From an uncultured Anaerolineae bacterium (GTDB lineage: Bacteria; Chloroflexota; Anaerolineae; CAYYKQ01), in assembly GCA_964440965.1 (NCBI GenBank), contig CAYYKQ010000001.1, positions 1 to 60,987 on the forward strand: DNA of 60,987 bases. The letters run 5' to 3'. Made by a program: the position numbers and the translations under genes. The notes beneath the pieces are model-generated. The model made no database searches, was not told the origin of the DNA, and saw only the letters and a list, made by a program, of their open reading frames with translations. Within the stretch, counting starts at the first letter, position 1, and every line of letters starts with the position of its first letter. This document shows, in pieces, positions 5,421-49,481 of this stretch.

Positions 5421-6632
5421 TCAGTAGTTCTTCAGCACCGTCGGCAGGAAGACTTGATGTAGCTGCATCCACACCTCCCCACCGGTGGCCCAGTTACAGG
5501 TGCCGATGTAGAGACTGTCGTTGAACACCGCTACCGCGTTGTCCCAGTTAGGCAAATAATTGTTGCTGTCGCCCAGGCCATCCGGCGCCACCTGTGCCCA
5601 GTTTGTGCCGTCTGTGGTGCGCCAGACTTCCATCCCCGTAGTGCGGTTGTAGGTGAGGGCGTACAGCGCGTTGTCAAAGACCACCAGCGAGCGGATAGCC
5701 CGGTTCTCGGTATCCCCGAAGCCTTTGGCGATGGGAACCTGCTGCCAGTCAGTGCCGTCACACTGTTGGCAGCGCCAGAGTTCGTGCCCTGGATTGTCGC
5801 TGTCTCTGTAGTTGTAGGTGCCAGCGTACAGGTAGCCGTTGAAGGGTTCCAGAGTGATGCTCCAGTTGTAGGGGTCGCCGAAGCCGCCTGCCACGACTCG
5901 CGTCCACGAGCCGCTGTCGCCGGTGCTGGAACGCCACACCTCAGCGCCTGACCAGTTATCGGTGCCAGCGTACAGGTGGCCATTGAACTCGACCAGCGAT
6001 ACGATCCTATTATTATCCACATCGCCAAATCCACCTGTCACCACCGGAGCCCACGAGCCGCTATCACCGCTACTGCTACGCCACAGTTCACAACCGTTCG
6101 TCCAGTTACAGGTAGTCGCGTAGAGTTGGTTGTTGAACACGGCAAAGTGGAGCACCGTACTATTGTTGGTGTTGGTGAAACCCCCGCTGGCCACCATCTG
6201 CCAATCGCCTGGATTGCCGGTAGCGCTTCGCCACACCTCGCCACCGGTTGTGTCGTTACTGACGCCGGCGTAGAGGTAACCGTTGAACTCAATCAGGTCG
6301 TCAATGCCCACATTGTTGCTGATGCCAAAGCCATTGGTGAATACTGCCGTCCACAGGCTGCCCATGCGCCACAGTTGAGCGCCGGTGTCGGAGTTGAAGG
6401 TGCCGGCGTAGAGTTGGCCATTGAATTCCTCCAGGGCCCCTACGCACCAGTTGTTGGCATCGCCGAAGCCGTCGATATTCACCTGCCGCCACCCCTGCAC
6501 TGGCGAGGCAGGCGGGCTGCCGCGACTGGGATGTGCTCCTGGCTCCGGCCCTTGGGCGGCCAGGGCCAGAGCAAGAGGCAAGGCCAGACCCACGACAATA
6601 ATAACCAATACTGTGAATAATCGCGCTTTCAT
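5421..6632 (-). CDS. Secreted beta-propeller repeat protein (Kelch-like FNGxLYAGT...EVWR repeats)
   Basis: Signal-like N-terminus MKARLFTVLVIIVVGLALPLALALAA. About 7-8 repeats of F(N)GxLYAG(T)xN...G(x)E(V/L)WR. The protein ends in VFLPTVLKNY. Confidence 0.6.
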   Translation of the reverse strand: MKARLFTVLVIIVVGLALPLALALAAQGPEPGAHPSRGSPPASPVQGWRQVNIDGFGDANNWCVGALEEFNGQLYAGTFNSDTGAQLWRMGSLWTAVFTNGFGISNNVGIDDLIEFNGYLYAGVSNDTTGGEVWRSATGNPGDWQMVASGGFTNTNNSTVLHFAVFNNQLYATTCNWTNGCELWRSSSGDSGSWAPVVTGGFGDVDNNRIVSLVEFNGHLYAGTDNWSGAEVWRSSTGDSGSWTRVVAGGFGDPYNWSITLEPFNGYLYAGTYNYRDSDNPGHELWRCQQCDGTDWQQVPIAKGFGDTENRAIRSLVVFDNALYALTYNRTTGMEVWRTTDGTNWAQVAPDGLGDSNNYLPNWDNAVAVFNDSLYIGTCNWATGGEVWMQLHQVFLPTVLKNY

Positions 6633-15520: not shown

Positions 15521-17533
15521 TCAGGGCATCCTGTCAATGGCTCCTCTGTGGGGTAGCGGCTCCACGGAATACTCATAGCTGGCCAGCTCCGTGGTCAGGG
15601 GGGCCAGTCCGCTTACCACCAGGATGGCCCTCTTCACCTCCTCGCCCAAACCCCTGACGACCAAGCGGCCCTCCTGGGCCTCGTTCAGCTCCATCCGCCG
15701 CACCTTCGTCTCCGCTCCCAGCTCGATGAGCTGTACCAGGAAGCGTTGGGGGACAGAGTTGTCGGTGCGAATGAAGCCTTCAGCCACCCATCCGCCATCG
15801 TCCTCGGCATCGTAGGTATAGCCCAGCTCAGGGATGGATATATCGTCCACGCAGAAGCCCACGTGGTTCACGGCATCGTCGGTGAGGTATTCGAAGCGGA
15901 GGAGGAGCTCGCCGCCCACATAGGGGGTCAAATCGACGGTCTCCTTGACCCAGACGGGCCCCGATTCCTCCTTCCTCGCCCCCTCTCCCGATTTTCCCGT
16001 ATACGCATGTCCGAAGCTGTTTCCATAAGGATTAGCATCGGTGGTGTACTTGCCCTTCAGGATCTTCCATGTCCTCCCGCCGTCGGTGGAAACCTCGATG
16101 TAGGCGTAGTCCCAATTCTCCTCGATGTCGTACCAGAGCCAGACCTCGAGGGTGGCTCGCTTCAGCCCTCGCAGGTCGAAAGCCCTGGTGAGGCGAGAGT
16201 CACCGCCGTCGCCACGTCCGCTCCACCACTGGTAGCGTCCGCTGTGAGGTTCGTTGGGGATGAGTTTCACTTGAGTGGAGCCAGCAAATTCGACAGCTAA
16301 GTCAACGGATCGCCTATTCGATGGGCAAAGGAGCTCGATGTAGTCGGTTCCGTACTGATGGACGGTGGTAGAACGACGGACAGGGTAACGATCGTGGATC
16401 TGATCGAGCTTAGGGGTGGCTACATCCAGCCTACGATAACCATAGCGGCCATCCGCCAGCTGAGGGTCATCTAAATAGTTTGCCACCACCCAATCGGCGA
16501 AGACATCCTCGAAGGTGAGTCCCCGTTCGGCCAGGACCGCGTTGAAGCCGGCGATGCCATTGGCTTGGTTGGCTACCACCTTGCGGGTTAACCCCTCGCC
16601 GAAGCGCTCTAAGAAGTAAGACATGAAAAGATAGCTGGCTCCGTAGTTAGGGATGGCCTCCTCAGGCTCCGGCCAGGAGGTGAGCTGGGTATCCGGAGAA
16701 CGGCTGAAGGCGTAGCTGGACCCGCCTACTGGATAGCCGTTGACCTGAGTTGCCAGCCCCGAAAGGCCCTCGTTGACCCAGGTGTCCTCGTTTCTATCAA
16801 CCCTCCAGTGGATCATGTGCTGGAACTCGTGGGCCAGGACCCCCTCGTATTCGTCCGTGCCCGGCTGGAGGGAATCCAGGTTGATATAGACTATCTCCCG
16901 TTCGTTGGAATAGGGGTTGATCAGATGGGAGTATTCATCGGCGCTGGAGTAATAGCCGCCCAAGCCGGGGACGTGTCCGTTGAAGACATGGATGCGGGGG
17001 TCGTTGTCCACACCTGGGGTCCACTCCTCTCCGAAAAAGCGATGGTTAGTGGGGTAAATACGGTTCTCGAAGCGCTCGGCCGACCTCTTTAAGGCATTCT
17101 CATCGACCTTGTAGCCTTCCTCAACCCACATGTAGAGGTGAGGGGTGATATAGCGCAGAGTGGCCGTGGCCGTGAAATGGGTCTTGCTGATCTCATTCCA
17201 GACCCAGAAGGTCTCCTTATCGCCGAGTTTATATCGAGGTGGAGTGGGGTTGACCACGACGGGGATGGGCTCCTCGGGATGTTTGAGGCGAGTGGCGACG
17301 TCCAAGAGGTCACGCTCCGGCATTTCCATCTCGGCCAGGGGCTTTGGCGATGGAGGATGCAGGGCGGTAGAGGTCAACGGAGGGGTGCGCACGGGGGTGA
17401 AAGTGGGGACGAGGGTGGGAGTGGAGGTGGGCACAGCGATCGCCTTAAGGGCCTGGGGGGCCTTGCAGCCCAAGATCAGGCCGAAGCCGATGATCGAGAT
17501 AAGGATAGCGAATCTAAGCCAACGACTACTCAA
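15521..17533 (-). CDS. Lipoprotein gluzincin-type metallopeptidase with a C-terminal jelly-roll (MAM/InhA-like) domain
   Basis: Lipobox LILGC at residues 20-24. Zinc motif VLAHEFQHMIH...WVNEG. C-terminal WWSGRGDGGDSRLTRAFDL...YIEVSTDGGRTW. Confidence 0.7.
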   Translation of the reverse strand: MSSRWLRFAILISIIGFGLILGCKAPQALKAIAVPTSTPTLVPTFTPVRTPPLTSTALHPPSPKPLAEMEMPERDLLDVATRLKHPEEPIPVVVNPTPPRYKLGDKETFWVWNEISKTHFTATATLRYITPHLYMWVEEGYKVDENALKRSAERFENRIYPTNHRFFGEEWTPGVDNDPRIHVFNGHVPGLGGYYSSADEYSHLINPYSNEREIVYINLDSLQPGTDEYEGVLAHEFQHMIHWRVDRNEDTWVNEGLSGLATQVNGYPVGGSSYAFSRSPDTQLTSWPEPEEAIPNYGASYLFMSYFLERFGEGLTRKVVANQANGIAGFNAVLAERGLTFEDVFADWVVANYLDDPQLADGRYGYRRLDVATPKLDQIHDRYPVRRSTTVHQYGTDYIELLCPSNRRSVDLAVEFAGSTQVKLIPNEPHSGRYQWWSGRGDGGDSRLTRAFDLRGLKRATLEVWLWYDIEENWDYAYIEVSTDGGRTWKILKGKYTTDANPYGNSFGHAYTGKSGEGARKEESGPVWVKETVDLTPYVGGELLLRFEYLTDDAVNHVGFCVDDISIPELGYTYDAEDDGGWVAEGFIRTDNSVPQRFLVQLIELGAETKVRRMELNEAQEGRLVVRGLGEEVKRAILVVSGLAPLTTELASYEYSVEPLPHRGAIDRMP

Positions 17534-18284
17534 ATCTTCTCCCCCTCTTCCGCCAGCGGTAACCCAGTAAGCCCGCAGCGCAGGCGACCAATCCTAAGTC
17601 CACGAACTGACTCACCCTCCAAGGGCCCACATAGAAGGCCTCGTCGCCGCGGGTGAAATCTAAAAGGAATTGGCCGCCGAAACCGAGGAGGATGTACACC
17701 GAGAAGCTGAACCCGCGGAAAGGCCAATGTCCGCGCTGAAGCCACAGAATGGCGAAGATGATTAAGCTCAGGGCAATTCCCATCACCTGGGTAGGAAAGC
17801 GAGGGGCGCTGATCCCATAGATATCGGGCAAATCTAAGCAGATGGGGCCCATGTCCATCCGGCCGTAAACACAGCCGTGAGCCAGGCAAGCCAACCAGCC
17901 GAAAGCTTGTCCCAAGGCCAGGCCGGGCGCAGCAGCATCGGCAAAGAGCCAGAAAGATGAGCCCTTGTAGGCAGCGTAGATGGCCAGCGCTGCCATTCCC
18001 AGGGGGAAAGCTCCCCAAAACGCCAGACCGCCCCGCCAAAAGAGGAGAGCCTCCCATGGCTTCTCGACGAAGTAGGTGTGGTTCTGAACTACATAGCCCA
18101 GCCTGCCGCCGATCGTTCCCCCCACCAAGGAGAGGAGGATGGCGTCGATGGCCAGCCATGGCGAACCCAGCATCCTTCTGCACTCCCAACAGACGAGGCC
18201 CGATCCGCAGATCAAGCCGAGGGTCAGGAGGACAGTGTAGGAGTAAATGGCCCTATGGCCAATGTGGAAGAGGATGGGATGCAT
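17526..18284 (-). CDS. lgt: Prolipoprotein diacylglyceryl transferase
   Basis: Polytopic 252-aa protein: MHPILFHIGHRAIYSYTVLLTLGL..., GGRLGYV, RFPTQV. Its 3' end overlaps the lipoprotein gene by 8 nt. Confidence 0.75.
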   Translation of the reverse strand: MHPILFHIGHRAIYSYTVLLTLGLICGSGLVCWECRRMLGSPWLAIDAILLSLVGGTIGGRLGYVVQNHTYFVEKPWEALLFWRGGLAFWGAFPLGMAALAIYAAYKGSSFWLFADAAAPGLALGQAFGWLACLAHGCVYGRMDMGPICLDLPDIYGISAPRFPTQVMGIALSLIIFAILWLQRGHWPFRGFSFSVYILLGFGGQFLLDFTRGDEAFYVGPWRVSQFVDLGLVACAAGLLGYRWRKRGRRFE

Positions 18285-21747: not shown

Positions 21748-24700
21748 CTATGAAGACCCCGGCCGATTCGACAATGGATACCAGATGCCCGGCTGGCTCA
21801 ATCGAATTTTGGCGGGTTCCATGCTCTGATTCGCCCCTAGGGTTCGGGAAGGCGGTCTCAGAGAGCCGCCCTTGCCTGCGCTTGCGCCCGTCCTCTTGCG
21901 CAGCAGGACATTGTCTACATAGCTCCCTTCGTAAGTAATGCTGGAGTCGCTGCCGAATACAAGGGCTATCCAGACCTGCTCCTCGCCCAGCAGGCTGCCC
22001 AACTCGGGCACATCGCTCAGGTCCAGCAACTCACCCGTCGTCCAACTTGACCAATCGCCAGTGACGAGTGTGCCATGGTAGTTTTCCCCATCGATGGAAG
22101 CGCCCCAGAAGAAGAGGTCGTATCCGTACTCGGTTTTGCTCCACCAATCGAAGGTCAACTCGGCCGCTGTGGCATCGGCCAGGCTGAAGGGGCCATGGAT
22201 CATCCAAGCGAACACATCGTTTGGATAGTCGCTGCCGCAATTCAGGGTGGTGTCACCTGCGCCGACACACCATGCGCTGTAGGAGCCCCCGTTGTTCCGG
22301 CAGTCTCGCTTGCCCCAGTAATAGTGACCGCTGTCCGGGTCGTTATCGCGGACCTCCCAGGTGCCATCCGGGAAGCTTCCCTCGAAATCCTCGGCCATGA
22401 TGTTTATCCAGCCCGTTGGAGGAGTTGGCGTTGCCGTCGGTGTGGCTGTTGGCGTAGGTGTCTGTGTTGGCGTGGCTGTAAGCGTGGGTGTTGGGGTAGG
22501 AGTCATTGGCGTTCCCGTGGGCGTCGGGGTAGGAGCGCCAGGGCTGTAGTTCTTTAGGATGATAGGCAGGTAGATTTTGAAGCCGGGCGGCGTGGGGGTG
22601 AGGGTTGGCGATGGCGTGGCCGTTGGGGTGGCTGTTGGCGTAGGTGTCTGTGTTGGCGTAAGGGTGGGAGTGCTGGTCGGTGTAGGGGTAGGGGGCTGGG
22701 TCTCAGTGACATCACCAGAAATAACCAGGGCATAAGGCTGAGGCCCTTGCGGCACATTGTATCCCTCAACCTTTATCGTGTAGTTGCCAGGAGATGGGGT
22801 GTCTATGTCTACTCCCACCACGTTATTCACCCTGTCCGCGGAAGTGCTGTAATCAGGTGAGACTACGACAGCTCGGATAGCCCAATTTCCATTGGGTATT
22901 GAACCATACGGCAAAGTATTCCATGAGGTTCCATCATATAGGTAACTGCGCCCAGCGGGAGAGGTACAGTCAATATATAGCCAGGGGTTAGTACTTAACG
23001 TTCCGGTAAAGTGCAGTTCAATGTAAAAATCGCCTTCAGTTATAGTCACCCCAGAGATATCAACGGTAAACCATCCGCTGGTGACAGGGGTAACGTCGGT
23101 GCTAAATAGTTTGGTGCCTGGTAAGCCGCCGGCTCCATCGTCATCCCATACGTTACAAGTGAACCGAGGCGAAGGTACATCTTTCAAAGACAACAAAAAA
23201 CGCGCTTTGTCTAAAGTCACCGGATAGGAGATAGGTGTAAATCTGACTGCAAATCCACGGTTAGCGCGTGCCATCCGACAACGGCCTTCATGAGTGCGAT
23301 CGTCATAGCTGAGGAGCTGGCTAACTCCCCGCTGGCTGGCATGGTTAGGATAGTATGCCGTCCCCGACGGATCGGTGACGGTGAGATCGAGGTCGTTGAC
23401 CAGGCCCCCGGCGGCCACAGCACTGCCAGGCCAGTCGCTCCACACCAGCGTCACCCTCAACGGCACCACTGAGCTATTAACGGTATAATTGTAGGTCTTG
23501 CTTCCACCTGTGTGAAGCCCTGAGGTCTCGTCAAAATAGTAAATCCTTTTCGGAGCCGCGGGGAAAAGAGAGTTCTCGAGATCCACCCTGCCCCAGCCCT
23601 CGACGTTATTGGGCGGCGGCGGAGGCGGGATCTCCCGGTAAGCCCCTGTTCCATACTGGCCAGGAGTAATGTCGCGCGCCCCATTGATGAGCATTGCCTT
23701 GATCAGGGCAGCGCTGGGGGTGATACCCTCAATATCGGTGTAGAACTGCCTCACCAGGGTGGCAGCGCCGGCCACAAGGGGGGTGGACATGCTAGTGCCG
23801 CCCATGTACATGTAGTAGCTGTTAATCGGCCCCCAGCCGTTTCCACTGATCATTGACGATCTCGTAGATGCAACGAACGTTCCAGGAGCCACAAGATCCG
23901 GTTTGAATCTCCCGTCAAGGCAAGGGCCGCGGCTGCTGAAGGCCACCATCCCGTTGGGATTGTCGGCTATTCGGTCATCCTTGATGGGGTTGGCCGGGAA
24001 GTCGTCGGGCCAACCTTGGCCCCAGGTAACAGTGAAATCCGGCCTATCGTTCTCTGTACCTCCGACGGTGATGCAATTCTTGGCCGTTCCCGGCTCGCCC
24101 ATTGAGACCAGATCTACAACACCATCTGCATCGCTGTCAACACCCTCATTGCCAGCTGCGAAGAGGATGGTGAAGTCTTTGTGGTCCCAGATAAACTCGT
24201 CGACATCCTCTGAACCCGAGCTATACACGCCCTTCTCAGCACCACCCCAGCTATTGGTGTGGATGCTTGCCCCAGCGGTGCGCGCCTGGTCGAAAAGGAT
24301 GTTCAGATCGGTGGGGATGCCCGAGAGTGCCTCAGTGGCGTTATCCTCTACCGCTTGAAAGACAAGGCTGGCTTCGGGTGCCATTCCCGCATAGCAATTA
24401 CTGGGATAGGTGTGAGTTGAAGGGGTGCTACCTGACCTGCTTCCATTTCCTAAAACTGATCCGGCCACGTGAGTGCCGTGACCGCTATTGACATCGTCCG
24501 CTCCATCGCCTACCAAGTCGTAGATGGCGATGACCCTCGATCCTCCGCTCCCATCTTCGAAGTCATCGTGGAGGCTAGCAGGATCGGTGGAGCCCCGATC
24601 CAAACCTGTATCGCACACAGCGACAATCTGCCCCGCGCCATAAAGCCTATGGGTGTTCCAGACGTCCCGCACATTCATGATGTCTGCCGCTTTGTTGTTA

Positions 24701-25404
24701 AGCAATTCCCATTTGGGCTCAAGCTCCACCCACTTCACGCCTGTGATATTGGCTATGGCCCCAATTTGTGTAGAATCTATCTCAACCTTGATCTTCCCCT
24801 TCCACCTGGTCTCTGTGACATCCAGGATCGTCCCGCCCAATTCTTTCAGCCGATTCGAGATCGCAGTGAGGTCCTCCCCCTTAAAGACCACAACGATCAG
24901 GGTGACCGATTCAGGGCCCTCAGCCAGGGCATAGGTGCTCATCAGTTGCGGCTCTATCCTGTACCCTGGCTGATAGATCCCCACCCAGCGGACCTCTTCC
25001 ATGGCCTCGACAGCGGCCTTTGTGGCTGCGTTCATCTTCACTATGAAAGCGAAATCCGGTATGTAGTCGAAGATCTTTGCGCCAGCGTCCGTTATGGCAT
25101 CCTTCCAAGCCTGCACTATCGGACCTTTGAATTGCAGGATGTAGTACCCTTCCTCACCAGCAGGATAACTTTCCAGCTTAAGATCGCTGGGAAGAGAGAT
25201 AGGGATTGGTTCAGCTAAAGGATCGAATGTCCCGCTGGCTAGGCGGATATATGGACCTTGGCTAACCGTGCCAGTAGGCGCGGGCAATGAGCCGAAAGCG
25301 GAGGCCCCCTCGCCCGCATTCAGCACTGTCAGCAAGATCACACCGATCAGAATCGCTGTGCCTAGAGCCCCAATGAGTTTATTTCTCATCTTTTTGCTTT
25401 CCAT
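21748..25404 (-). CDS. Secreted subtilisin-like (S8) serine protease with PT-rich linkers and an appended C-terminal domain
   Basis: Catalytic triad contexts VAVCDTGLD, GHGTHVAGS and GGTSMSTP. Signal/TM segment LIGALGTAILIGVILLTVL. Strong SD aaggagg 5 nt before the ATG. Confidence 0.88.
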   Translation of the reverse strand: MESKKMRNKLIGALGTAILIGVILLTVLNAGEGASAFGSLPAPTGTVSQGPYIRLASGTFDPLAEPIPISLPSDLKLESYPAGEEGYYILQFKGPIVQAWKDAITDAGAKIFDYIPDFAFIVKMNAATKAAVEAMEEVRWVGIYQPGYRIEPQLMSTYALAEGPESVTLIVVVFKGEDLTAISNRLKELGGTILDVTETRWKGKIKVEIDSTQIGAIANITGVKWVELEPKWELLNNKAADIMNVRDVWNTHRLYGAGQIVAVCDTGLDRGSTDPASLHDDFEDGSGGSRVIAIYDLVGDGADDVNSGHGTHVAGSVLGNGSRSGSTPSTHTYPSNCYAGMAPEASLVFQAVEDNATEALSGIPTDLNILFDQARTAGASIHTNSWGGAEKGVYSSGSEDVDEFIWDHKDFTILFAAGNEGVDSDADGVVDLVSMGEPGTAKNCITVGGTENDRPDFTVTWGQGWPDDFPANPIKDDRIADNPNGMVAFSSRGPCLDGRFKPDLVAPGTFVASTRSSMISGNGWGPINSYYMYMGGTSMSTPLVAGAATLVRQFYTDIEGITPSAALIKAMLINGARDITPGQYGTGAYREIPPPPPPNNVEGWGRVDLENSLFPAAPKRIYYFDETSGLHTGGSKTYNYTVNSSVVPLRVTLVWSDWPGSAVAAGGLVNDLDLTVTDPSGTAYYPNHASQRGVSQLLSYDDRTHEGRCRMARANRGFAVRFTPISYPVTLDKARFLLSLKDVPSPRFTCNVWDDDGAGGLPGTKLFSTDVTPVTSGWFTVDISGVTITEGDFYIELHFTGTLSTNPWLYIDCTSPAGRSYLYDGTSWNTLPYGSIPNGNWAIRAVVVSPDYSTSADRVNNVVGVDIDTPSPGNYTIKVEGYNVPQGPQPYALVISGDVTETQPPTPTPTSTPTLTPTQTPTPTATPTATPSPTLTPTPPGFKIYLPIILKNYSPGAPTPTPTGTPMTPTPTPTLTATPTQTPTPTATPTATPTPPTGWINIMAEDFEGSFPDGTWEVRDNDPDSGHYYWGKRDCRNNGGSYSAWCVGAGDTTLNCGSDYPNDVFAWMIHGPFSLADATAAELTFDWWSKTEYGYDLFFWGASIDGENYHGTLVTGDWSSWTTGELLDLSDVPELGSLLGEEQVWIALVFGSDSSITYEGSYVDNVLLRKRTGASAGKGGSLRPPSRTLGANQSMEPAKIRLSQPGIWYPLSNRPGSS

Positions 25405-35278: not shown

Positions 35279-35533
35279 AGCTTAGGCTAAGGAGGCCAGC
35301 CGGATAAAAAGCCGTTCGCCTGGCCAAGCCAATCGGGCGGATGGCTCTTCCTGTGCACGGCCTTGTCCATGCCCTTCTCCCCCGCGGATTGCCCGCTTTA
35401 GGCACCCTTGGCAATTCTATACTATTCTCTCAGGCAGGTTTATCAAATTTCATCGGGGAATCAGAGCGGTTTTCAAAAGTTCGGGTTTTATGGTATAATA
35501 GCTTATGATCCTTTCAGCTTGGAAGATTGGCCT

Positions 35534-36271: not shown

Positions 36272-36284
36272 GGGAGGCGATGGC

Positions 36285-37391: not shown

Positions 37392-37400
37392 AGGGGCCTT

Positions 37401-38078: not shown

Positions 38079-38143
38079 GGGCTGCTTTGCCCAAAGGCGA
38101 GGGATATGGTAGAATGGAATTGATTTAACCAGGGGGCGATCGA

Positions 38144-40684
38144 ATGGAACTCCGTCCACCATGCAGCAGAGGGATAGGAGCGGGGTGCCTTGCTCCGTTC
38201 GTTCTCATCGTAACCCTGACGCTGATGTCGAGCGTCTCAAACGCTCTGCCCGGACGCCCGGGGTCGTGTGCGATCCGAGATCCGGCGAGCGACCAGCGGA
38301 ACATCCGATTGCTCAGCCAAATCGGGGGCACGCTTAACGACGTCGTGATCCAGGGAGATTACGTCTATCTGGCCATAGGCCCACGGGTGGTTGTCTTGGA
38401 CGTGTCCGATCCAGCTCACCCGGCCGTCGTCGGACGGACGGATGCGCTGCGCGGCAATGTGAGCGCTATTGCCATCCAAAATAGCTACGCCTATGTTACC
38501 GCTGGAAATGCACTGTACATCTTCAGCATAACGGTCCTCACCTGCCCCCTCAGAGTTATCCTGACCCAATCCGGCGTTTTTGAGTTCGTCGCATATGACG
38601 GACCTGCTTTTCACGCCATGGATGTAGCGGTGGAGGGCGATCACGCCTACGTCATCTTTGCCCGTGGCACCATTTTTGAGGGTGAGAGCTACCTGAAGGT
38701 TATAGATATCAGCACCCCGGACGCCCCTACCGAGGTCGGTGAACTTTATAGACGCCACCTTGCCCAGGCTGTGGCTGCGGCGGGCGATTACGTTTACGTG
38801 GCCTTTTGGGGCGCCCTGACCGCCATCGACGTCTCCAACCCCGAATTCCCTTCCGAGGTGGGCTCCTGTTCAGAGGTGGATAGCGGCCAAGATTTGGTCG
38901 TAGTCGGCAACTACGCTTACGTGGCCAACTGGGCTGTCGATGAGTTTCGCATCGTCAACGTCGGTGATCCTGCCAATCCACAGCAGGTGGGCTCCTACCA
39001 CACCAGGGGAACCGCTTACGGGTTAGCAGTGGCCTATCCTTATGCCTACGTCACCGATACGGAAGGTGGACTGCGCATCCTGGATATCGCTGATCCCTCC
39101 AATCCCACCGAGGTGGGATTCTACGACTTGTCCGATGACCCGCATGGTGAACACCTGGCGGCCTTCGATGTAGCTGTTGCAGGGGACACAGCTTATGTGG
39201 TGATAGATAGAAATAGCCTGCATATCGTGGATATCACCTACCATGCTAATCCGAGCAAAATCGCCTCTTACGAAAGTCCCGTCGCCGACCCCACCAGCGT
39301 CAGGGTAGTCGGCAGCTATGCCTATGTTACTGACTACAACCGCGGACTGTATATCCTGAATGTTGCCAACCCAAGCGACCCGCAGGTGGTCGGGCTGTGG
39401 GACAAGAACGACCCCTGGATGTGGCCGATAGATGTGGATGTGGCGGGAGATTACGCCTATGTGCTCGACGATTCTGAATTGCACATCATCGATGTCTCCA
39501 ATCCGGCATCCCCCTTTGAAGTGGGCAGCTATGAGGACCCGTCGGGTGGGTTCACCCATATCGCTGTGGCGGGGAATTACGCCTATGTGACGGCGGAGTG
39601 GAAGGGGTTATTGGTGTTTGATGTCTCCAACCCGGCCGTTCCAACGCTGGTCACCAGCTCGCCCTATAACTTTGACGGCCATCCCTTTGGGCTGTCGCGT
39701 CCCACTGTGCTGGGGACCAGCCTCTACACCACCTGTGGCTATGATTTTTGCGTCGTCAATGTCGCCGACCCCGCTAATCCAGAGCTGGTGAGCTGCAAGG
39801 ACATCCCAGGATACGCCCAGGATGCAGTGGTCGCCAGCTATCCCTTCTCCGATTTCTATGCCTACGTAGCCGAATCTCCCATCTCGCAGGGTTATCAGTA
39901 CCAGTATGGTGGGCTGCGCATTCTATCTCTGACGGACCTATCCGAAGTGGGCTATTATCCCACGCCCAGGTCCCCATATAGCGACCGCGCGCCAGCTCTA
40001 GTGGCGGTAGCAGGTTATGAAGCCTATATGGTGGAAGAGGAGTGGAGTGAGAGAACCATGTGGGAGTGGGAATATACCCTACGGTTGGTGGACCTTCATG
40101 ATTTGTCTAACCCCACCGGGGCGGGCTTCTTCGAGCTGCCTGGGAGAGTGGACAATCTGGCGGTGGCCGGCAGTTACGCGTACGTTCCTGTGCGGGACAG
40201 CGGGCTGATGGTCTTCCGCTATGTCCCCAGCATATCAGCGTCCATTCCCCCTTCTGGTGGCAACCTGGCATCGAATTTTGATAACACCAGTTACACCTTT
40301 GCAGCGGGCACTTTCACCCACACGACGACGGTCACGCACGCCTACCTGCTTGCCGAGGATACACCCTCCACAGGCAACCTGGTGGGGATTCAGCATGCCT
40401 ACCAGGTCTCAGCAGTGGATGACGTGACCGGCCAGCCAGTGGAACCTAACCTACCTTACACCATCACCATCCAATACACCGATGCCGAGAAGGGCCCAGC
40501 CATCGAGGAGACGCTGGCGTTATACCGCTGGGACGGCTTGCAGTGGGTGGAAGAGCCCACCAGCCGGGTGGATACGGTCAACAACACCGTCACCGCCGCC
40601 CCCAATCGCTTCTCCACCTGGGCGGTGTTGGGCGAAACCCATCGGGTGTTCCTGCCGATGGTGCTTAAGGACTGCTCACCATAA
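38144..40684 (+). CDS. LVIVD-repeat beta-propeller surface protein
   Basis: More than 10 repeats of the type GNYAYVA...GLRILDIADPSNPTEVG. Signal-like N-terminus. C-terminus RVFLPMVLKDCSP. Confidence 0.75.
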   Translation: MELRPPCSRGIGAGCLAPFVLIVTLTLMSSVSNALPGRPGSCAIRDPASDQRNIRLLSQIGGTLNDVVIQGDYVYLAIGPRVVVLDVSDPAHPAVVGRTDALRGNVSAIAIQNSYAYVTAGNALYIFSITVLTCPLRVILTQSGVFEFVAYDGPAFHAMDVAVEGDHAYVIFARGTIFEGESYLKVIDISTPDAPTEVGELYRRHLAQAVAAAGDYVYVAFWGALTAIDVSNPEFPSEVGSCSEVDSGQDLVVVGNYAYVANWAVDEFRIVNVGDPANPQQVGSYHTRGTAYGLAVAYPYAYVTDTEGGLRILDIADPSNPTEVGFYDLSDDPHGEHLAAFDVAVAGDTAYVVIDRNSLHIVDITYHANPSKIASYESPVADPTSVRVVGSYAYVTDYNRGLYILNVANPSDPQVVGLWDKNDPWMWPIDVDVAGDYAYVLDDSELHIIDVSNPASPFEVGSYEDPSGGFTHIAVAGNYAYVTAEWKGLLVFDVSNPAVPTLVTSSPYNFDGHPFGLSRPTVLGTSLYTTCGYDFCVVNVADPANPELVSCKDIPGYAQDAVVASYPFSDFYAYVAESPISQGYQYQYGGLRILSLTDLSEVGYYPTPRSPYSDRAPALVAVAGYEAYMVEEEWSERTMWEWEYTLRLVDLHDLSNPTGAGFFELPGRVDNLAVAGSYAYVPVRDSGLMVFRYVPSISASIPPSGGNLASNFDNTSYTFAAGTFTHTTTVTHAYLLAEDTPSTGNLVGIQHAYQVSAVDDVTGQPVEPNLPYTITIQYTDAEKGPAIEETLALYRWDGLQWVEEPTSRVDTVNNTVTAAPNRFSTWAVLGETHRVFLPMVLKDCSP

Positions 40685-40769
40685 ACTCCAAGGCCGTGCT
40701 ACCATATCGGGCGTGAGAGAGGGCAGATGCTTAGGGAAAACAAGGGAGTCGAAGATCGAGGAGGAGGAT

Positions 40770-41570: not shown

Positions 41571-41580
41571 GGAGGTGGAC

Positions 41581-42249: not shown

Positions 42250-42271
42250 TTAGGAGAGTACAGGAGGTTTC

Positions 42272-43655: not shown

Positions 43656-43741
43656 GCAATGGGCTCGCCGCCCTCCTTTGGATTTCGGAAATCTCCAAAA
43701 TCTAAAGGGAACCGACGGATAGACTCAGGGGCTGTGACTGA

Positions 43742-43780
43742 GCGAGGGATCGGCCTCCGTCAGGGGTCTCGATCCCTCGC
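43742..43780 (+). other. Perfect 11-bp-stem hairpin between the nucleotidyltransferase gene and the giant gene
   Basis: gcgagggatcg-(17 nt)-cgatccctcgc. This argues that 43659-43793 is leader rather than coding sequence. Confidence 0.55.
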
Positions 43781-43793
43781 AGGGTACGATCGA

Positions 43794-46700
43794 ATGAAAA
43801 GCTGTGGAATCGATCTGAAGCAATGGGTTCCCCTGCTGATCCTGGGACTATTGGTTACTGCGGCGCTGCTTCCGGCCTTCGCCATGGATGGCGACCGCCC
43901 CACGGTGGTGAGCAGTTGGCTCACCATCACACCCTCAATTGACGGTGTGATTGCAGGTGGGGAATGGGAGGACGCCACATTTGTTGACATCAGCTCAGGC
44001 GGCAGGGAGGCCTACGCCTACTTTAAGAACGATGGAGATTGGCTCTACGTGGCCATTGATGCCGTGTTTGATGAGGCGTACGAGGGCGATCCTTACTCCT
44101 GGTGGGACGAGGTGAGGATCACCTTCGACGCGGGCAACGATGGCAATCTGCTGTCCGACTGGCTCGTCAAGTTTGGAGCCCCGGCGGCGAAGGGAGTGGC
44201 GGAGCTATTGTCACCATGGGGCATCTGTCATCACATGGTGGTGGAGAGCGGGTTAGGCGCCGTCAACGATGCGGCCGGGAATGTCCAATATGAACTGAAG
44301 ATACCCCTCCATGTGGATGAGCCTGGCCTAGAAGGCCCTCTGGTGGGCAACCCAGGGGAGTCGGCCGGCATGGTAATTGATGTGGCAGATCACTGTGCAT
44401 TTGGCGGGTGCCAGAATCGGCTGTTGTATCCTGCTGATGCACAGATACCGATGTACTACGAATTCGACTGCATAGATGGCCCGGATCCCATCGTCCAGAC
44501 CTGGGCTGTTTTGCAGGTAGGTTCGCCTGAATGTTGCCCATGCGAATTAACCACTCGGGACATAACCGCGGAATTAGGATACCCTAACCCTGCCCGCCAC
44601 ACAGACATCATTGTAAAATTCTCTGCTGCATGCAGCGATACCGTCTGCGGGTTGGTTGCTGGATGCTCGTATCCCTGGGTGCACATCAAAGGGTGTGGAA
44701 TACATGGTATTGACTATTACGTGCTGGCACACAATCCGGACCCATACTATGAATTATCGGGCTATGTTGGGGACTATGTCAGGCTGACCGGCGTTGTCAT
44801 CGAGGGCTATGGCATTCTGGGTGACCCTTTTATCAGCGGGTATGACTCCATTGAGCGGATCTCCAACTGTTCCGATTGCGAACGCGAGTATTGCGATCCA
44901 GCATCCTTTACCGTCTTGCTGCATGAGCCGCCTGATACCACAACAGACATAACGAGCGATTTCTACCGGTATACCAAAGGCATCTATAGAGCGACTGTGC
45001 TAGCTGGAGAGCCCGGAACAAAAACAATAGAGGTGAGCGCACCAGACTGCCCGGCAATTGAAAGGGAATTGCACCTGGTTGGCGGCACCGTCTGCGGACA
45101 GGTTGACTGGGGAATCGAGTGGGCATCCATCCAAGGCTGCGACGATGTTGTGTATTATGTAAGTACCGATGGATATGGACTGCACGATAGGCTCGAAGAT
45201 TACGATGGCGAGTGGGTATTACTAAGTTCAGTCGTCTTCGAGGGCTATGTTGATGCCAATACTCCCCTCATTTCTAATTGCGACGACATCCTAGAAATCT
45301 CTGATTGTTCAGAGTGTTACAGCGATAAATTCATTGATGATTGCACAGAGATAGACTCTCCAGGGTACTATAAACTAACCTATGACATACACGAGAGCGC
45401 AGCCCAGGAATGCATAAAGATAACAGCCAGCGATGTGACCTTTGATGGCAATGGCCACTACATAAGCGCTGCTGAGATCATAGATGGGCTTGAGGACAGG
45501 TGTGCTATCTGCGTCGGTGGCTCGGGCACACTGAGCAATGTTATCGTTAAAAACGTCAGTATTCCGGGAGATTGGGATATCGGCATACGCTTTTCCGGGG
45601 TCGAAAATGGCAGAATAGAGGGTAACAGCCTTTGGAGGAACAAGGACTACGGAATCCTCCTCATCAATTCCAGCGGCATCGCCGTCGTGAACAATGACCT
45701 TGGTTACAACCTGGACGGGATCTTCCTCATGGACTCCGATGGCAACACGATCACCGACAACACCGCTCAGGGCCACTACAGCGGGATTGGACTGGTCCGA
45801 TCGAGCGGCAACGAACTCTTAAACAACACCGCTTCGATGAATTACCTGGGGGTAGACCTCTATCAGGAGTCTAACAACAACCTGATTTTAAGCAACACCG
45901 TAGAACTTAACCTCAACCAGGGTTTATATATCGGCAGCGATTGTACAGGCAACACGATAAGCCAGAATTTTGTCTGCTCCAACGATCAGTCAAGCCAGGG
46001 CTACGCTGATATTCATGCTGAGGTTCTGGATGTAAATTCTGGCACCGAAAACACCTGTGATAACACCTATAACTGGGATGACATCGGCACTACCGGATGC
46101 ACACATTGGTGTGATGACTGGGACAAGGACGGGATAAGTGACAGTGAGGACAACTGCCCGTATGATCCTAATCCGGATCAAAGCGATATGGATGGAGATG
46201 GGATAGGTGATGTCTGTGACTCCGATAAGGACGGCGATGGGGTTCCCAACGAGGACGATAATTGCCCTGAGGTTCCCAATCCAGGTCAAGGTGATATGGA
46301 CGGAGATGGAGTAGGGGATGTCTGCGACCCCGATAAGGATGGTGACGGGGTCCCTAACGAGGATGACAATTGCCCTGAGGTTAGCAATCCGGATCAGAGC
46401 GATCAAGACGGAGATGGGATAGGGGATGCCTGCGAACTTGAGCTGATAGGTCTGGAGGTAACCCAAGGCATCCAGAACCTAAGAAACAGCGTTACGCTGA
46501 TCGAAGGCAAACCCACTTATGTGCGTGCTTACGTCCGGAGCAATTCGGGCACGGTGCAGTATGTGACAGCCCATCTGATCGGCAGGCGCAACGGCGCTCC
46601 ACTTCCGGGCTCACCACTGAGCCCCGACAATATTGGGATGAGCGTTCATGTAAAACAAAACCCCAAGCGCGCCCAACTGAACGACAGTTTCTATTTCCGG

Positions 46701-49481
46701 CTGCCCGACGGGTGGATAAGTGGAACGATCGAGTTAGAGTTCGAGGGTATCAGCCATGACTTCGACTGCAGGGAGCCGGCCGAACAGGGCGGAACTGCCA
46801 ATGACTGCAAGGTTGAGGTGACGTTCACCCAGTCCCCTGAGCTTCAGATCAAGTTTCTTCTGTATTCATGGATTGACCTTGATCTCAATAAACACTATCC
46901 TAACAGCAATGATCTGGCTGAATTAGCCAAGGAAATCATGTCCATCTTCCCCATTCCCAAACTAGATTTCGAGATAGGCGTTGGAAGCACTTGGATTGGT
47001 ACCGGTCCACCAAGCACAGACTCTGACTTTAAGCAGATAAACCTGAGCACAAGTACGATACGCGCGACCGACGGTTGTTTCACAACATGGCCTGTGAACT
47101 GTAAACGGTACTATCTGACTGTGCTGGTTGACCCGCCAAAAGAAGGCACTATGGGAACAGCTACAATTGGTTCCGAGGTAGCTGTGGCCTATGTGGATGT
47201 TAACCGCACACCATCTCACGAACTCGGTCACTGTGCCGGTCGCAAACATACGAAGTGTAAAGGTGATGAAGACGATCCGGACGACAACTATCCGTATTAT
47301 CCGGGCGGTAGAATCAACCCCCCGTCTCGTTGGTTTTATTCACAATGGGATGAAGAAACCTTCTTTGGCTTCGATATCTACACAAAGGCAATCTATCACG
47401 AAACTACCGGCGATTTGATGAGCTACTGTGACCCTAGATGGCCTTCGGACTACACGTACGAGGGTATTCGCGAGCATCTGGCGGATCATTTCGGAGCGGC
47501 CTCTCTTTCCTCTCCCTCGTTGGTCCTGATGGCTGAGGAACCCGCCATTCTGGTCAGCGGTGTCGTCACCCCCGCCACAAGCAGTGGCAGGATAGCGTCG
47601 GTGCTTAATATCGAGTCCCCGGCTCCTGTCCCCGCTCCAGAGCCTGGCCCGTACGTGATCCGCTTTGAAGATGGTCTGGGGAATGAGCTGGCCTCGTACA
47701 GCTTTGAGCCTGACTTTATGGTGGCGTTTTGCAGACAGTGTGCCGATGACAGCGAGAACCGGATTGGGACCTTCGTATTGCTCCTGCCATGGGACTCGCG
47801 TACCGCCCGCATTGTGTTGTTACATAACGGGCAAGAATTGGATTCCCGCCTTGCATCGGCTCACGCGCCTACGGTGACGGTGCTGTACCCCAATGGTGGA
47901 GAGTTCCTGAGCGGCTCCACCGCAACACTCGGTTGGACTGCCCATGATCCGGACGGCGAGCCGCTGGAGTATCTGGTCCAGTACAGCACCGATGGCGGAG
48001 CAAGCTGGCAGACCCTGGTGACGAATTGGACTTCGACCACCTATGAGCTTAACTTGGGCATGATAGCCGGTACCGACCAGGGATTGCTGCGCGTATTGGC
48101 CAGCGATGGATTCCACACCGCCCAGGACCAGTCTGATGGAACGTTCAGCGTTGCCAAGCATCCCCCTCAGGCAAACATCTGGTCTCCAGAAGACAACACG
48201 CTGTACGTAGGCAATCAAACCATTACCTTGGAAGGCTATGCATATGACAATGAAGACGGGTTGCTAAGCGATGTGGCACTGAGTTGGAGTTCCAACCTAG
48301 ATGGCATTCTGGGCACAGGAAGCTCTCTAGCAGTCGTCGCCTCTACGCTAACGGAAGGCATCCACATCATCACTCTCATGGCACAAGATAGCGATGGACA
48401 AGTTGGTACAGACACTGTCACTGTCCAAGTCTACAGAGAAAGGCCCACATTGCCCCCCAACCTAGCAGTCGCGCCTATGACATTACTCTTCACCGCTGTG
48501 GAAGGCGGCGGACAAACTGCCGAGCAGGTTATCTCGATTCGAAACAGCGGTGACGGCCAACTGATGTGGTCGGCGGTCGTTGATCGGTCCTGGATTCTGG
48601 CAAGCCCCTTGGAAGGCACCGCTCCAAGCGAAATCTCTGTCGCCGTAGACCCAACAGGCCTGCCAGCCGGGGAATATACCGGTAAAATCACTATCACAGC
48701 TCCAGGAGCCGCCAACAGTCCGCAAACTGTTCGGATTGCACTATACGTTCAAAAACAGTACACCATCTACCTCCCCCTCATCCTGAAAAACTACCGCCCC
48801 GGCCCCCAGCCACCTATCACTCCCACACCCACCCCGACGCCTCCGACCAGGTCTTTTCCCGCTCCTGCAGGCACGCAACCAAACGGCTTGGCATGGGATG
48901 GGAGCCATCTGTGGATGTCCTCCTACATGGCGAACGGGGGGATATACATGTTGGAGCCATCGGACGGTTCGGTATTGAAGATGTGCACGCCCCCAACGGC
49001 TCAATATGGAGGGTACGGTGGCCTGGCATTCGATGGAACCTACCTCTGGCAGGCCGATTCCTACGGCGGAGGGATCTACAAGCTGAACACTGCTGACTGC
49101 TCCGTGGTCTCCACCATTCCAAGCCCCGACATGTACCTTAATGACCTGGCATGGGATGGCAATTATCTCTGGGTGTGCGGATATACGTCGGGAAAGCTGT
49201 ATAAACTGGAACCCAGCGACGGCTCAATAGTGGCCGAATTCGACATCCAAGGGGAAGGCCTCACATACGATGGGACTTATCTGTGGCTGTCCCAGGGCAG
49301 CAGGATCCTCAAAATCAACCCCTTAAATGGACGGGTGATCTCCTCTATGCAGACCCCATTTTCGCGCCCTGAGAGCCTGGCATGGGATGGCGAATACCTA
49401 TGGGTTGCCTCCTTTGATGAGGCGATGATTTATCGCATCGACGTCGGGACCTTGACGTCCTCGCCCGCTTTAGAGCGCTAA
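43794..49481 (+). CDS. Giant mosaic secreted/surface protein
   Basis: - Signal: [30 protein letters not shown].
- Internally duplicated Cys-rich module.
- PbH1-type beta-helix repeats (about 45.45-46.0 kb).
- Three TSP3-type units [34 protein letters not shown] (46.12-46.44 kb).
- Zincin motif [12 protein letters not shown] (47217).
- BNR motif STDGGASW.
- [10 protein letters not shown] followed by a PT linker.
- LAWDGxYLW propeller, glutaminyl-cyclase-like.
- An alternative start at 43659 is possible. Confidence 0.8.

What the first reader, a model, noticed from the sequence alone, without database searches (positions are those of the whole stretch)
5424..5453. Shared [VI][FY]LPx[IV]LK[ND][YC] motif at or near the C-terminus of four unrelated secreted proteins: possible sorting or processing signal
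Four proteins with signal-like N-termini and unrelated domains carry the same 10-residue hydrophobic motif:
- Propeller protein: VFLPTVLKNY-stop (5424-5453, minus strand).
- LVIVD protein: VFLPMVLKDCSP-stop (40646-40675).
- S8 protease: IYLPIILKNY (22546-22575, minus strand).
- Giant protein: [10 protein letters not shown] (48765-48794).

In two cases the motif is the extreme C-terminus. It is not LPXTG plus TM plus basic tail, PEP-CTERM, GlyGly-CTERM or a T9SS C-terminal domain. Conservation of a short motif across otherwise unrelated exoproteins is how sorting signals have usually been recognised. I cannot name this one.
Basis: partly seen in the sequence, partly recalled or inferred. Interest (0 to 1): 0.6.

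Follow-up and report, generated by a model that had tools for sequence, protein, structure and literature searches.

The report
YLP-box tag on exported proteins
The shared ten-residue motif is real, but it is the "YLP-box", a short tag on exported proteins of Chloroflexota that NCBI curators already list as a putative sorting motif; comparisons here show it takes the place of lipid and other surface anchors, although what reads it is still unknown.

Summary
All four motif copies are in the sequence exactly as described. They are far from chance. The 1.78-Mb genome holds 26 copies, against about 1.6 expected. Nearly all sit on proteins with export signals, and most lie 2-15 residues from the stop codon.

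The motif is not unnamed. The tails score above cut-off on NCBIfam NF050076 (sort_motif_YLP) and NF053834 (ultrashort_CTERM), the "YLP-box putative sorting motif". No paper in the library mentions it. In public genomes it is essentially confined to Chloroflexota.

- **It replaces known anchors.** Homologues of the LVIVD protein carry PGF-CTERM, a T9SS domain, dockerin, CWB2 or a membrane helix where Chloroflexota copies carry the box.
- **It excludes the lipid anchor.** Among solute-binding proteins, lipobox and YLP-box never co-occur (p about 3e-10).
- **It tolerates position.** It also occurs after the signal peptide and between linkers.
- **It is exposed.** AlphaFold2 predicts a free tail.
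- **Known enzymes do not track it.** Exosortase and PorU-like C25 peptidases are rejected. Sortase is uninformative.

My reading is a position-tolerant, probably non-covalent surface-retention tag. The mechanism is untested. This is a rediscovery of a catalogued motif.

The parts
5424..5453 (-). YLP-box VFLPTVLKNY, extreme C-terminus of the propeller protein. The extended box is HQ-VFLPTVLKNY, up to 5459.
   Evidence: translation. It is followed directly by the stop at 5421-5423. It fits the genome-wide consensus. This copy did not itself register on the NCBIfam models (protein 1).
5421..6632 (-). Gene for a 403-aa exported beta-propeller protein (signal peptide, DUF6242/ELWxxDGT-like blades) that carries the box.
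40646..40675 (+). YLP-box VFLPMVLKDC, followed by SP and the stop, at the C-terminus of the LVIVD protein.
   Evidence: It scores 15.8-16.1 bits on NF050076 (cut-off 15) and 13.5-13.7 bits on NF053834 (cut-off 10). AlphaFold2 predicts residues 831-846 as an unstructured tail with pLDDT falling from 69 to 53.
38144..40684 (+). Gene for the 846-aa LVIVD-repeat, choice-of-anchor B protein.
   Evidence: LVIVD scores 270 bits and TIGR04312 scores 100.5 bits.
40241..40645 (+). A beta-sandwich domain of about 135 aa immediately before the box (...NRFSTWAVLGE). It travels with the box as a cassette and is also found at the end of solute-binding proteins.
   Evidence: strands 706-830, pLDDT above 90. 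The same ...[23 protein letters not shown] ending occurs on SBP_bac_5 homologues and LVIVD homologues. There is no Pfam hit and no PDB sequence relative.
22546..22575 (-). Internal YLP-box IYLPIILKNY of the S8 protease. It is flanked on both sides by Pro/Thr linkers and followed by a C-terminal domain of about 190 aa.
21748..25404 (-). Gene for the 1218-aa exported subtilase (Peptidase_S8).
48765..48794 (+). Internal YLP-box [10 protein letters not shown] of the giant protein. It is followed by a Pro-rich linker and a DUF6923 propeller-like domain.
   Evidence: It scores 15.1 bits on NF050076 and 14.9 bits on NF053834.
43659..49481 (+). Gene for the mosaic surface protein of about 1900 aa (beta-helix, TSP3, BACON, DUF6923). 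The likely true start is near 43794, just before the signal peptide.

Best explanation
The motif is the YLP-box of Chloroflexota. Its extended form is aromatic-basic-[VI]-[YF]-L-P-[LI]-[VI]-[LM]-[KR]-N-aromatic. It is a short exposed peptide on Sec- or Tat-exported proteins.

I read it as a cell-surface retention tag. After the signal peptide is cut, the box keeps the protein at the cell envelope. It does the job that a lipid anchor, a membrane helix, a dockerin, PGF-CTERM or a T9SS domain does in homologous proteins.

The box also works just after the signal peptide and between two linkers. It has no invariant nucleophilic side chain and no membrane-spanning segment. The most likely mechanism is therefore non-covalent tethering. 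Either it docks as a short linear motif into a still unidentified envelope receptor (about 30%), or it wedges into the outer face of the cytoplasmic membrane (about 20%).

Shown: the motif's reality, its family membership, its restriction to Chloroflexota, its restriction to exported proteins, its interchange with other anchors, and its exposed state in a model. Inferred: retention as the function, and the non-covalent mechanism.
For: 1. **Identity.** The tails score above the curated cut-offs of NF050076 and NF053834. Of the 27 tails from this genome, 17 match NF050076 and 13 match NF053834.
2. **Lineage.** A back-translated VYLPLVLRN pattern scanned over GTDB species genomes returned 75 Chloroflexota among the 80 loci listed.
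3. **Anchor swap at the C-terminus.** Of 119 LVIVD homologues, 39 (strict regex) to 64 (loose regex) end in the box. The named box-bearing records are Anaerolineae or Chloroflexota. Others end in PGF-CTERM, a T9SS C-terminal domain, dockerin, CWB2 or a membrane helix plus basic tail. The protein itself is a 'choice-of-anchor B' member.
4. **Anchor swap in solute-binding proteins (SBPs), which must stay near the membrane permease.**
   - In this genome, 5 SBPs have a lipobox and no box, 2 have an N-terminal membrane helix and no box, and 4 have a box and no lipobox.
   - Of 119 closest homologues of the boxed SBP_bac_5, 69 (strict) to 103 (loose) end in the box, and none has a canonical lipobox.
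   - In four box-rich relatives, about 26 of 30 SBP_bac_5 proteins are lipoproteins, 3 are helix-anchored and none has the box.
   - Fisher p = 3e-10 with the strict counts.
5. **Position tolerance.**
   - In this genome, 4 copies follow the signal peptide and 4 are internal.
   - 16 of 122 copies in other genomes are internal.
   - A GH5-like family carries a box variant (…LP[LI]V.NN[YC]) after the signal peptide in dozens of members, where other members have a dockerin.
6. **Exposure.** In AlphaFold2 with a 53-sequence alignment, the fold is confident up to residue 830. The box has pLDDT 69 falling to 53 and no secondary structure.
7. **No dedicated enzyme found.**
   - Exosortase is absent from this genome and from most box-rich relatives.
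   - C25/PorU-like peptidase is absent from this genome, G007, G012 and G017, and abundant in box-poor G006, G013 and G020.
   - No recurrent neighbour gene appears in 120 loci.
8. **Physical plausibility of membrane binding.**
   - The flanks are enriched in aromatic residues (52%) and basic residues (38%).
   - The core equals the start of the membrane-active peptide crabrolin, FLPLILRKIVTAL (PMC10572522).
   - The Wimley-White interfacial energy of the 12-mers is -1.2 kcal/mol. Random 12-mers give +2.6, crabrolin -1.4 and temporin A -2.5.
Against: - The invariant L-P pair, the position-specific preferences and the restriction to one phylum point to a specific reader, and I did not find one.
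- About 80% of copies are C-terminal. The distance to the end is sharply peaked, with a mode of two residues after the basic residue. That is what a C-terminal recognition or processing signal would look like.
- The interfacial energy of about -1.2 kcal/mol is too weak to hold a large protein without folding or avidity. About 9% of random 12-mers are as hydrophobic.
- Sortase is present in every box-rich genome but one. This genome has one sortase and I found no LPXTG-type substrate for it. A sortase with altered specificity is therefore not excluded.
- The solute-binding-protein statistics count related sequences and are not phylogenetically independent.
- There is no experimental datum on any YLP-box protein in the searched literature.
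Confidence: 0.5

Rival explanations
1. The box is a covalent sorting signal. An unidentified transpeptidase, possibly a sortase with altered specificity that reads L-P-x-[VI], cuts within or just after the box. It then links the protein to peptidoglycan, a glycan or a lipid. This would be an ultrashort analogue of LPXTG, PEP-CTERM or PGF-CTERM.
For: - NCBI curators name the models 'ultrashort_CTERM' and 'sorting motif'.
- About 80% of copies are C-terminal, with a sharply peaked distance to the end.
- The box replaces PGF-CTERM and T9SS domains in homologues.
- L-P is also the invariant core of LPXTG.
- Sortase is present in all box-rich genomes but one.
- This genome has a sortase and no LPXTG substrate was found.
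- Box genes are enriched in glycan-synthesis loci: 7 of 20 GT4 genes lie next to box genes, p = 2e-4.
Against: - There is no membrane-spanning segment or basic tail to hold the precursor at a membrane enzyme.
- N-terminal copies occur in a whole GH5-like family, and there are internal copies. With these, transpeptidation at the box would anchor only a short peptide or cut the protein in two.
- Sortase is equally present in box-poor genomes (family f22) and missing from box-rich G032.
- Exosortase and C25 peptidases do not co-vary with the box.
- No enzyme gene recurs next to box genes.
- Wall-linked solute-binding proteins would be an odd design.
Confidence: 0.2
2. The box is a proteolytic maturation or release site. 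A protease cuts at the box to trim tails, split multidomain precursors at internal boxes, or free proteins from N-terminal pro-segments.
For: - Internal boxes sit exactly at module boundaries between linkers.
- N-terminal boxes lie between the signal peptide and the catalytic domain, like a pro-peptide junction.
- Many carriers are hydrolases and proteases.
Against: - Most copies are 0-4 residues from the natural end, where cutting would achieve nothing.
- Strict exclusion with the lipobox in solute-binding proteins points to retention, not release.
- Replacement by anchors (dockerin, PGF-CTERM, CWB2, membrane helix) in homologues also argues for retention.
Confidence: 0.1
3. The box is an export-related or quality-control element. 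It could be a binding site for an extracytoplasmic chaperone or a PDZ-type tail-recognising protease, and not a localisation signal.
For: - It is an exposed hydrophobic tail with an aromatic residue at or near the C-terminus, as in tails read by PDZ domains.
- It is found only on exported proteins.
Against: - It does not explain the mutual exclusion with lipid and helix anchors, nor the swap with dockerin, PGF-CTERM or T9SS domains.
- PDZ-type recognition cannot read N-terminal or internal copies.
Confidence: 0.07
4. The motif is a chance or compositional coincidence, or a DNA-level repeat such as a recombination site or terminator that happens to be translated.
For: The motif is short and made of hydrophobic residues that are common in a 58% GC genome.
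Against: - There are 22 observed copies against 1.6 expected.
- The reversed-pattern DNA control gives about 0 hits per genome, against 17 real hits.
- Synonymous sites vary freely.
- The motif is conserved across orthologues at 30-80% identity.
Confidence: 0.01

Closest known systems
NCBIfam NF050076 'sort_motif_YLP' and NF053834 'ultrashort_CTERM' (YLP-box putative sorting motif-containing protein)
   Same: It is the same motif. Of the 27 tails in this genome, 17 match NF050076 and 13 match NF053834. Those shown individually score above the curated cut-offs. The lineage (Chloroflexota) and the carriers (exported proteins) also match.
   Different: Nothing differs in kind. This lineage favours K-N-Y after the hydrophobic core, where many genomes end in R. 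The models and their names imply a C-terminal signal, but about 20-30% of copies here are N-terminal or internal. The propeller copy at 5424-5453 is too divergent to register on the models.
Sortase / LPXTG cell-wall sorting signal
   Same: There is a short motif with an invariant Leu-Pro on exported surface proteins. Sortase genes are present in the same genomes.
   Different: There is no Thr-Gly, no membrane helix and no basic tail. The box also occurs at N-terminal and internal positions. Sortase presence does not track box abundance.
PGF-CTERM/archaeosortase, PEP-CTERM/exosortase and the T9SS C-terminal domain
   Same: The box occupies the same place in homologous 'choice-of-anchor' proteins. 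It can travel with a preceding beta-sandwich, as PGF-CTERM does with its pre-PGF domain.
   Different: Those signals have a membrane helix or a folded domain of 70-100 residues, are strictly C-terminal, and have dedicated enzymes. Exosortase/archaeosortase and PorU-like C25 genes do not co-vary with the box and are absent from this genome.
Bacterial lipoprotein anchor (lipobox, Lgt/Lsp pathway)
   Same: It is functionally interchangeable with the box in solute-binding proteins of the same genomes, often with a Pro/Thr linker between anchor and domain. Lgt is encoded in the window.
   Different: The lipobox is N-terminal, needs a Cys and gives a covalent lipid. The box has no Cys, is mostly C-terminal, and never co-occurs with a canonical lipobox.
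Non-covalent anchors: dockerin-cohesin, SLH, CWB2; amphipathic C-terminal membrane anchors such as that of E. coli PBP5 (from general knowledge)
   Same: These are modules that work at either end of a protein without cleavage. Dockerin and CWB2 replace the box in homologues.
   Different: Those are folded domains of 40-70 residues, or helices of about 18 residues, with known partners. The box has 10-12 residues and no known partner.
Membrane-active FLP peptides: crabrolin (FLPLILRKIVTAL-NH2) and temporin A (FLPLIGRVLSGIL-NH2)
   Same: The first 7-8 residues equal the box core [FY]LP[LI][IV]L[RK], with comparable interfacial hydrophobicity (PMC10572522).
   Different: They are unrelated free animal peptides that act as lytic helices. 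This is a physical analogy only, with no homology and no test.

Membership tests
YLP-box (NCBIfam NF050076 / NF053834) | Score at or above the curated cut-off (15 and 10 bits) on the 10-11-position models | tested here: met
   Two of the four window copies (LVIVD and giant) pass both models. Of the 27 genome copies, 17 match NF050076 and 13 match NF053834. The propeller and S8 copies fit the consensus by eye but did not register.
YLP-box (NCBIfam NF050076 / NF053834) | Carried by exported (signal-peptide) proteins of unrelated families | tested here: met
   (17 of 20 against a 23% background, p = 5e-9).
YLP-box (NCBIfam NF050076 / NF053834) | Restricted to Chloroflexota | tested here: met
   75 of the 80 listed loci are Chloroflexota. 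Searches show a patchy distribution within the class and phylum.
YLP-box (NCBIfam NF050076 / NF053834) | Located at the extreme C-terminus ('ultrashort CTERM') | tested here: inconclusive
   This holds for 2 of 4 window copies, about 19 of 26 genome copies, and 102 of 122 copies in other genomes. Conserved N-terminal and internal copies also exist.
Sortase substrate (LPXTG-type) | LPXTG-like pentapeptide followed by a membrane helix and a basic tail at the C-terminus | tested here: not met
   Only 0-15 residues follow the box, and there is no helix. Searches found no such signal anywhere in the genome.
Sortase substrate (LPXTG-type) | Sortase presence tracks substrate presence | tested here: inconclusive
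   Sortase is present in 20 of 21 relatives and 106 of 151 genomes in the phylum sample, including box-poor ones. It is missing in box-rich G032. This genome has one sortase.
PEP-CTERM / PGF-CTERM (exosortase or archaeosortase) | Exosortase or archaeosortase gene in the same genome | tested here: not met
   PF09721 is absent from this genome and from box-rich G008, G010, G018 and G019. The control genome (M. jannaschii) was detected.
T9SS C-terminal domain | Folded C-terminal domain of 70-100 residues, plus a PorU-type C25 peptidase | tested here: not met
   The tail has 10-12 residues. PF01364 is absent from this genome, G007, G012 and G017, and abundant in box-poor genomes.
Bacterial lipoprotein | Lipobox with invariant Cys at the end of the signal peptide | tested here: not met
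   Box-bearing solute-binding proteins have no lipobox, and lipobox paralogues have no box.

The most novel reading that the evidence does not exclude
The YLP-box is a new class of bacterial surface-retention signal. It is a 10-12-residue peptide that works at either end or in the middle of a protein, needs no processing enzyme, and tethers exported proteins by docking to a phylum-specific envelope receptor or by wedging into the membrane outer leaflet. In Chloroflexota it routinely replaces lipoprotein anchoring, even for ABC-importer binding proteins.
Probability: 0.35. Interest if true: 0.65.

Novelty: already known. Interest (0 to 1): 0.33.

Why it matters
Chloroflexota are abundant in soils, sediments, hot springs and wastewater sludge, and their cell-envelope biology is poorly known. 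Ten to forty-five exported proteins per genome carry this tag, including hydrolases, proteases, adhesin-like giants and nutrient-binding proteins. Knowing how it works would show how this phylum builds its cell surface.

The motif itself is already catalogued, so the finding as given is a rediscovery. The useful additions are testable constraints:
- The tag is interchangeable with lipid, helix, dockerin, PGF-CTERM and T9SS anchors.
- It excludes the lipobox in solute-binding proteins.
- It tolerates N-terminal and internal positions.
- It is not tied to exosortase or PorU-type enzymes.

If it is a machinery-free tether, it could also be a very small display tag for protein engineering.

Tried and rejected
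1. **DNA-level repeat.** Rejected, because synonymous codons vary freely.
2. **Chance.** Rejected by shuffles and reversed-pattern controls.
Rejected, because it is absent from this and most box-rich genomes.
   - It looked promising in the phylum sample, where all box-rich genomes except this one have it.
   - It failed within the class. It is absent from G000, G007, G012 and G017 and abundant in box-poor G006, G013 and G020.
   - The phylum-level correlation is probably shared ancestry, or C25 proteins being carriers of the box.
5. **Sortase.** Neither supported nor excluded.
6. **Conserved neighbour gene.**
   - Clustering ORFs around 120 box loci from other genomes gave only other surface proteins, an FHA-ABC transporter, a TolB-like protein and regulators.
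   - In this genome only GT4 and GT2 glycosyltransferases are enriched nearby. This rests on about four loci and was not reproduced in the 120 loci.
7. **A lipobox-versus-box swap in the GH5-like paralogue pair on contig C16.** Weakened, because some homologues have a Cys-containing signal peptide and a box together.
8. **Solved structures.** There is no PDB relative of the pre-box domain.
9. **Literature.** No paper mentions the motif or the NCBIfam models.
10. **Blind phylogenetic profiling of all proteins.** This could not be run with the tools at hand.
Full report
**Observation**

- VFLPTVLKNY-stop is at 5424-5453 on the minus strand.
- VFLPMVLKDCSP-stop is at 40646-40681.
- IYLPIILKNY is at 22546-22575 on the minus strand.
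- [10 protein letters not shown] is at 48765-48794.

The carriers are a 403-aa propeller protein, an 846-aa LVIVD/choice-of-anchor B protein, a 1218-aa subtilase and a mosaic surface protein of about 1900 aa. All four have N-terminal export signals and unrelated domains. One correction is needed. In the subtilase and the giant protein the motif is internal, 267 and 230 residues from the end. It sits between Pro/Thr-rich linkers and is followed by a further domain.

**Not chance, and not a DNA feature**

The window lies in a 1.78-Mb, 146-contig, 91%-complete genome.
- The regex [VILMAC][FYW]LPx[VILMA][VILMA][KR] occurs 26 times in ORFs of at least 100 aa.
- In a crude non-overlapping gene set it occurs 22 times, against 1.6 expected from within-protein shuffles (maximum 5 in 100).
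- About 19 copies lie 2-15 residues from the stop. Four lie shortly after a signal peptide and four are internal.
- Of carriers with complete 5' ends, 17 of 20 have an N-terminal hydrophobic segment, against 23% of all genes (p = 5e-9). The three misses are start-codon or gap artefacts.
- Codons for the invariant Leu and Pro use all synonymous forms, so selection acts on the peptide.
- A back-translated DNA pattern gives 14-17 hits in this genome and none for the reversed control pattern.

**What it is called**

When the tails alone are scanned, they score above the curated cut-offs of NF050076 (sort_motif_YLP, 11 positions, cut-off 15 bits) and NF053834 (ultrashort_CTERM, 10 positions, cut-off 10 bits). 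Both are described as "YLP-box putative sorting motif-containing protein". Full-length scans miss these hits.

The motif is therefore catalogued. No paper in the searchable library mentions it or the models. This scan has met it in at least 68 other genomes, always ending with "mechanism unknown".

**Distribution**

Of the 80 loci listed, 75 are Chloroflexota: Anaerolineae, Thermoflexia, Caldilineales and Chloroflexia. The five or so others are within the number expected by chance.

Inside the phylum the box is patchy. Counts per genome range from background to 44. This genome is the densest at about 9.5 per Mb. Whole families of the same class have none. The closest named homologues are from Anaerolineae.

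In the 120 loci from other genomes, 102 of 122 copies lie within 13 residues of the stop. The sharp mode is two residues after the basic residue. Sixteen copies are internal. The unbiased flanks extend the motif to twelve residues: aromatic (52%), basic (38%), [VI], [YF], L, P, [LI], [VI], [LM], [KR], N, aromatic, and then the end or a Pro-rich linker.

**Evidence on function: anchor swaps**

*LVIVD homologues.* Of 119 homologues of the LVIVD protein, 39 (strict regex) to 64 (loose regex) end in the box. The named box-bearing records are Anaerolineae or Chloroflexota. Others end in one of the following:
- PGF-CTERM (methanogens);
- a T9SS C-terminal domain;
- a dockerin;
- a CWB2 wall-binding domain;
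- a membrane helix with a basic tail.

The protein is itself a member of a "choice-of-anchor" family.

*Solute-binding proteins of ABC importers.* These must stay near the membrane permease.
- In this genome, five have a canonical lipobox followed by a Pro/Thr linker and no box. Two have an N-terminal membrane helix and no box. Four (SBP_bac_5 twice, SBP_bac_1, Peripla_BP_6) have a cleavable-looking signal peptide without Cys and end in the box.
- Of the 119 closest database homologues of the boxed SBP_bac_5, 69 (strict) to 103 (loose) end in the box, and none has a canonical lipobox.
- In four box-rich relatives, about 26 of the 30 best SBP_bac_5 genes are lipoproteins, three are helix-anchored, and none has the box. 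This includes the nearest relatives of the boxed protein.
- Lipobox and box never co-occur (Fisher p = 3e-10 with strict counts). The sequences are related, so this is not an independent sample.

*A travelling cassette.* Many boxed binding proteins carry, between the binding fold and the box, the same beta-sandwich of about 130 residues that ends the LVIVD protein (…[23 protein letters not shown]). Domain plus box therefore travels as a cassette.

**Evidence on mechanism**

*Position tolerance.* A GH5-like family represented on contig C16 carries a box variant (…[YF]LP[LI]V.NN[YC]) 10-30 residues after the signal-peptide cleavage site in dozens of members. It sits directly before the catalytic barrel or before a long Pro/Thr linker. 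Other members have a dockerin at that place. Two polytopic GT-C-type membrane proteins also carry the box on their extracytoplasmic C-terminal parts. The known transpeptidase signals (sortase, exosortase, archaeosortase, rhombosortase, T9SS) are strictly C-terminal.

*No conserved nucleophile.* The aromatic position accepts Y, F and W. The basic position accepts K and R.

*Structure prediction.* AlphaFold2 with a 53-sequence alignment gives a confident fold (mean pLDDT 89). The last strand ends at residue 830. The box at 831-846 is an unstructured tail with pLDDT falling from 69 to 53. The box is free to bind something else.

*Candidate readers.*
- Exosortase is absent from this genome and from most box-rich relatives.
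- C25/PorU-like peptidases correlate with the box across the phylum sample. Within the class, however, they are absent from four box-bearing genomes including this one, and abundant in box-poor ones.
- Sortase is nearly universal in both box-rich and box-poor genomes. This genome has one truncated sortase gene and no recognisable LPXTG-type substrate. That remains a loose end.
- No gene recurs next to box genes in 120 foreign loci.

*Direct membrane binding.* This is physically conceivable but weakly supported. The box core equals the start of the lytic peptide crabrolin (FLPLILRKIVTAL-NH2, PMC10572522). It also resembles temporins. The 12-mers have a mean Wimley-White interfacial energy of -1.2 kcal/mol. 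Random 12-mers give +2.6, crabrolin -1.4 and temporin A -2.5. That energy alone would not hold a large protein.

**Reading**

The best-supported statement is functional. The YLP-box is a surface-retention tag that substitutes for lipid, helix, dockerin, PGF-CTERM and T9SS anchors.

The mechanism is most likely non-covalent: docking to an unidentified envelope receptor, or insertion at the membrane interface. The reasons are that the tag works at either end and in the middle, is exposed, lacks a nucleophile and a helix, and has no tracking enzyme among those tested.

A covalent pathway with an unknown enzyme, or a sortase with altered specificity, remains a serious rival. The C-terminal bias, the peaked distance to the end and the invariant Leu-Pro all fit it. 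A role as a cleavage site fits the internal copies but not the terminal majority, nor the exclusion with lipid anchors.

**Verdict**

The interpretation as a sorting-type signal is broadly right, but the motif is already catalogued by NCBI and has been rediscovered many times in this scan. The mechanism stays open. The comparisons made here narrow it and give concrete experiments.

Noticed in passing
window 40241-40645; also homologues P0198-P0313: A beta-sandwich of about 130 aa (…GPAIE.TL.LY.WDG..W..EP.S.VD...N.[14 protein letters not shown]) precedes the box on both LVIVD proteins and SBP_bac_5 binding proteins. It has no Pfam or PDB relative. It looks like a 'pre-YLP' stalk domain, analogous to the pre-PGF domain of archaea.
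   Followed up: partly
window 35408-43655: The LVIVD and giant box genes flank an exopolysaccharide-type gene set: a GT4 glycosyltransferase (36285-37391), a Wzz chain-length determinant (about 40.7-41.6 kb), a ParA/BY-kinase-like ATPase (41575-42249) and a sugar nucleotidyltransferase (42579-43655). Genome-wide, GT4 genes (7 of 20, p = 2e-4) and GT2 genes (5 of 13) are enriched next to box genes. This rests on about four loci.
   Followed up: partly
genome contig C2:12376-14019 and C2:15025-18828: Two polytopic GT-C/PMT_2-like membrane proteins (8 and 11 predicted helices) carry a YLP-box. One has it at the extreme C-terminus. The other has it between the membrane domain and a glycoside-hydrolase-like domain.
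   Followed up: partly
genome contig C16:9261-11180 and homologues P0130-P0192: A GH5-like family has an N-terminal box variant ending in N-N-[YC] instead of [KR]-N-Y. The public gene call for this protein (P0126, 460 aa) starts after the Pro/Thr linker. It therefore misses the signal peptide and the box.
   Followed up: partly
genome contig C98:1-465: The single sortase gene of the genome is cut by a contig end. No LPXTG-type substrate was found in the assembly.
   Followed up: partly
genome contig C80:3173-7962: Three adjacent exported proteins end in a membrane helix plus an Arg cluster. One has it after a GEVED…NAVTLTRLEA segment. This is a different, helix-type C-terminal anchor that coexists with the YLP-box.
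   Followed up: no
window 15521-18284: An InhA-like MAM protease (670 aa) is a lipoprotein (lipobox LILGC) without a box. It lies next to the Lgt gene. This is another case of one anchor per protein.
   Followed up: no
relatives and phylum sample: Peptidase_C25 (gingipain/PorU-like) genes are common in Chloroflexota, with up to 8 per genome, although none of the 14 control genomes has one. Their role in a phylum without a known T9SS is unclear.
   Followed up: no
window 21748-21900 (C-terminal 50 residues of the S8 protease): The subtilase ends in a low-complexity basic, Pro- and Ser-rich tail (…RKRTGASAGKGGSLRPPSRTLGANQ…NRPGSS) that looks unlike the rest of the protein. It may be read-through or a frame problem.
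   Followed up: no
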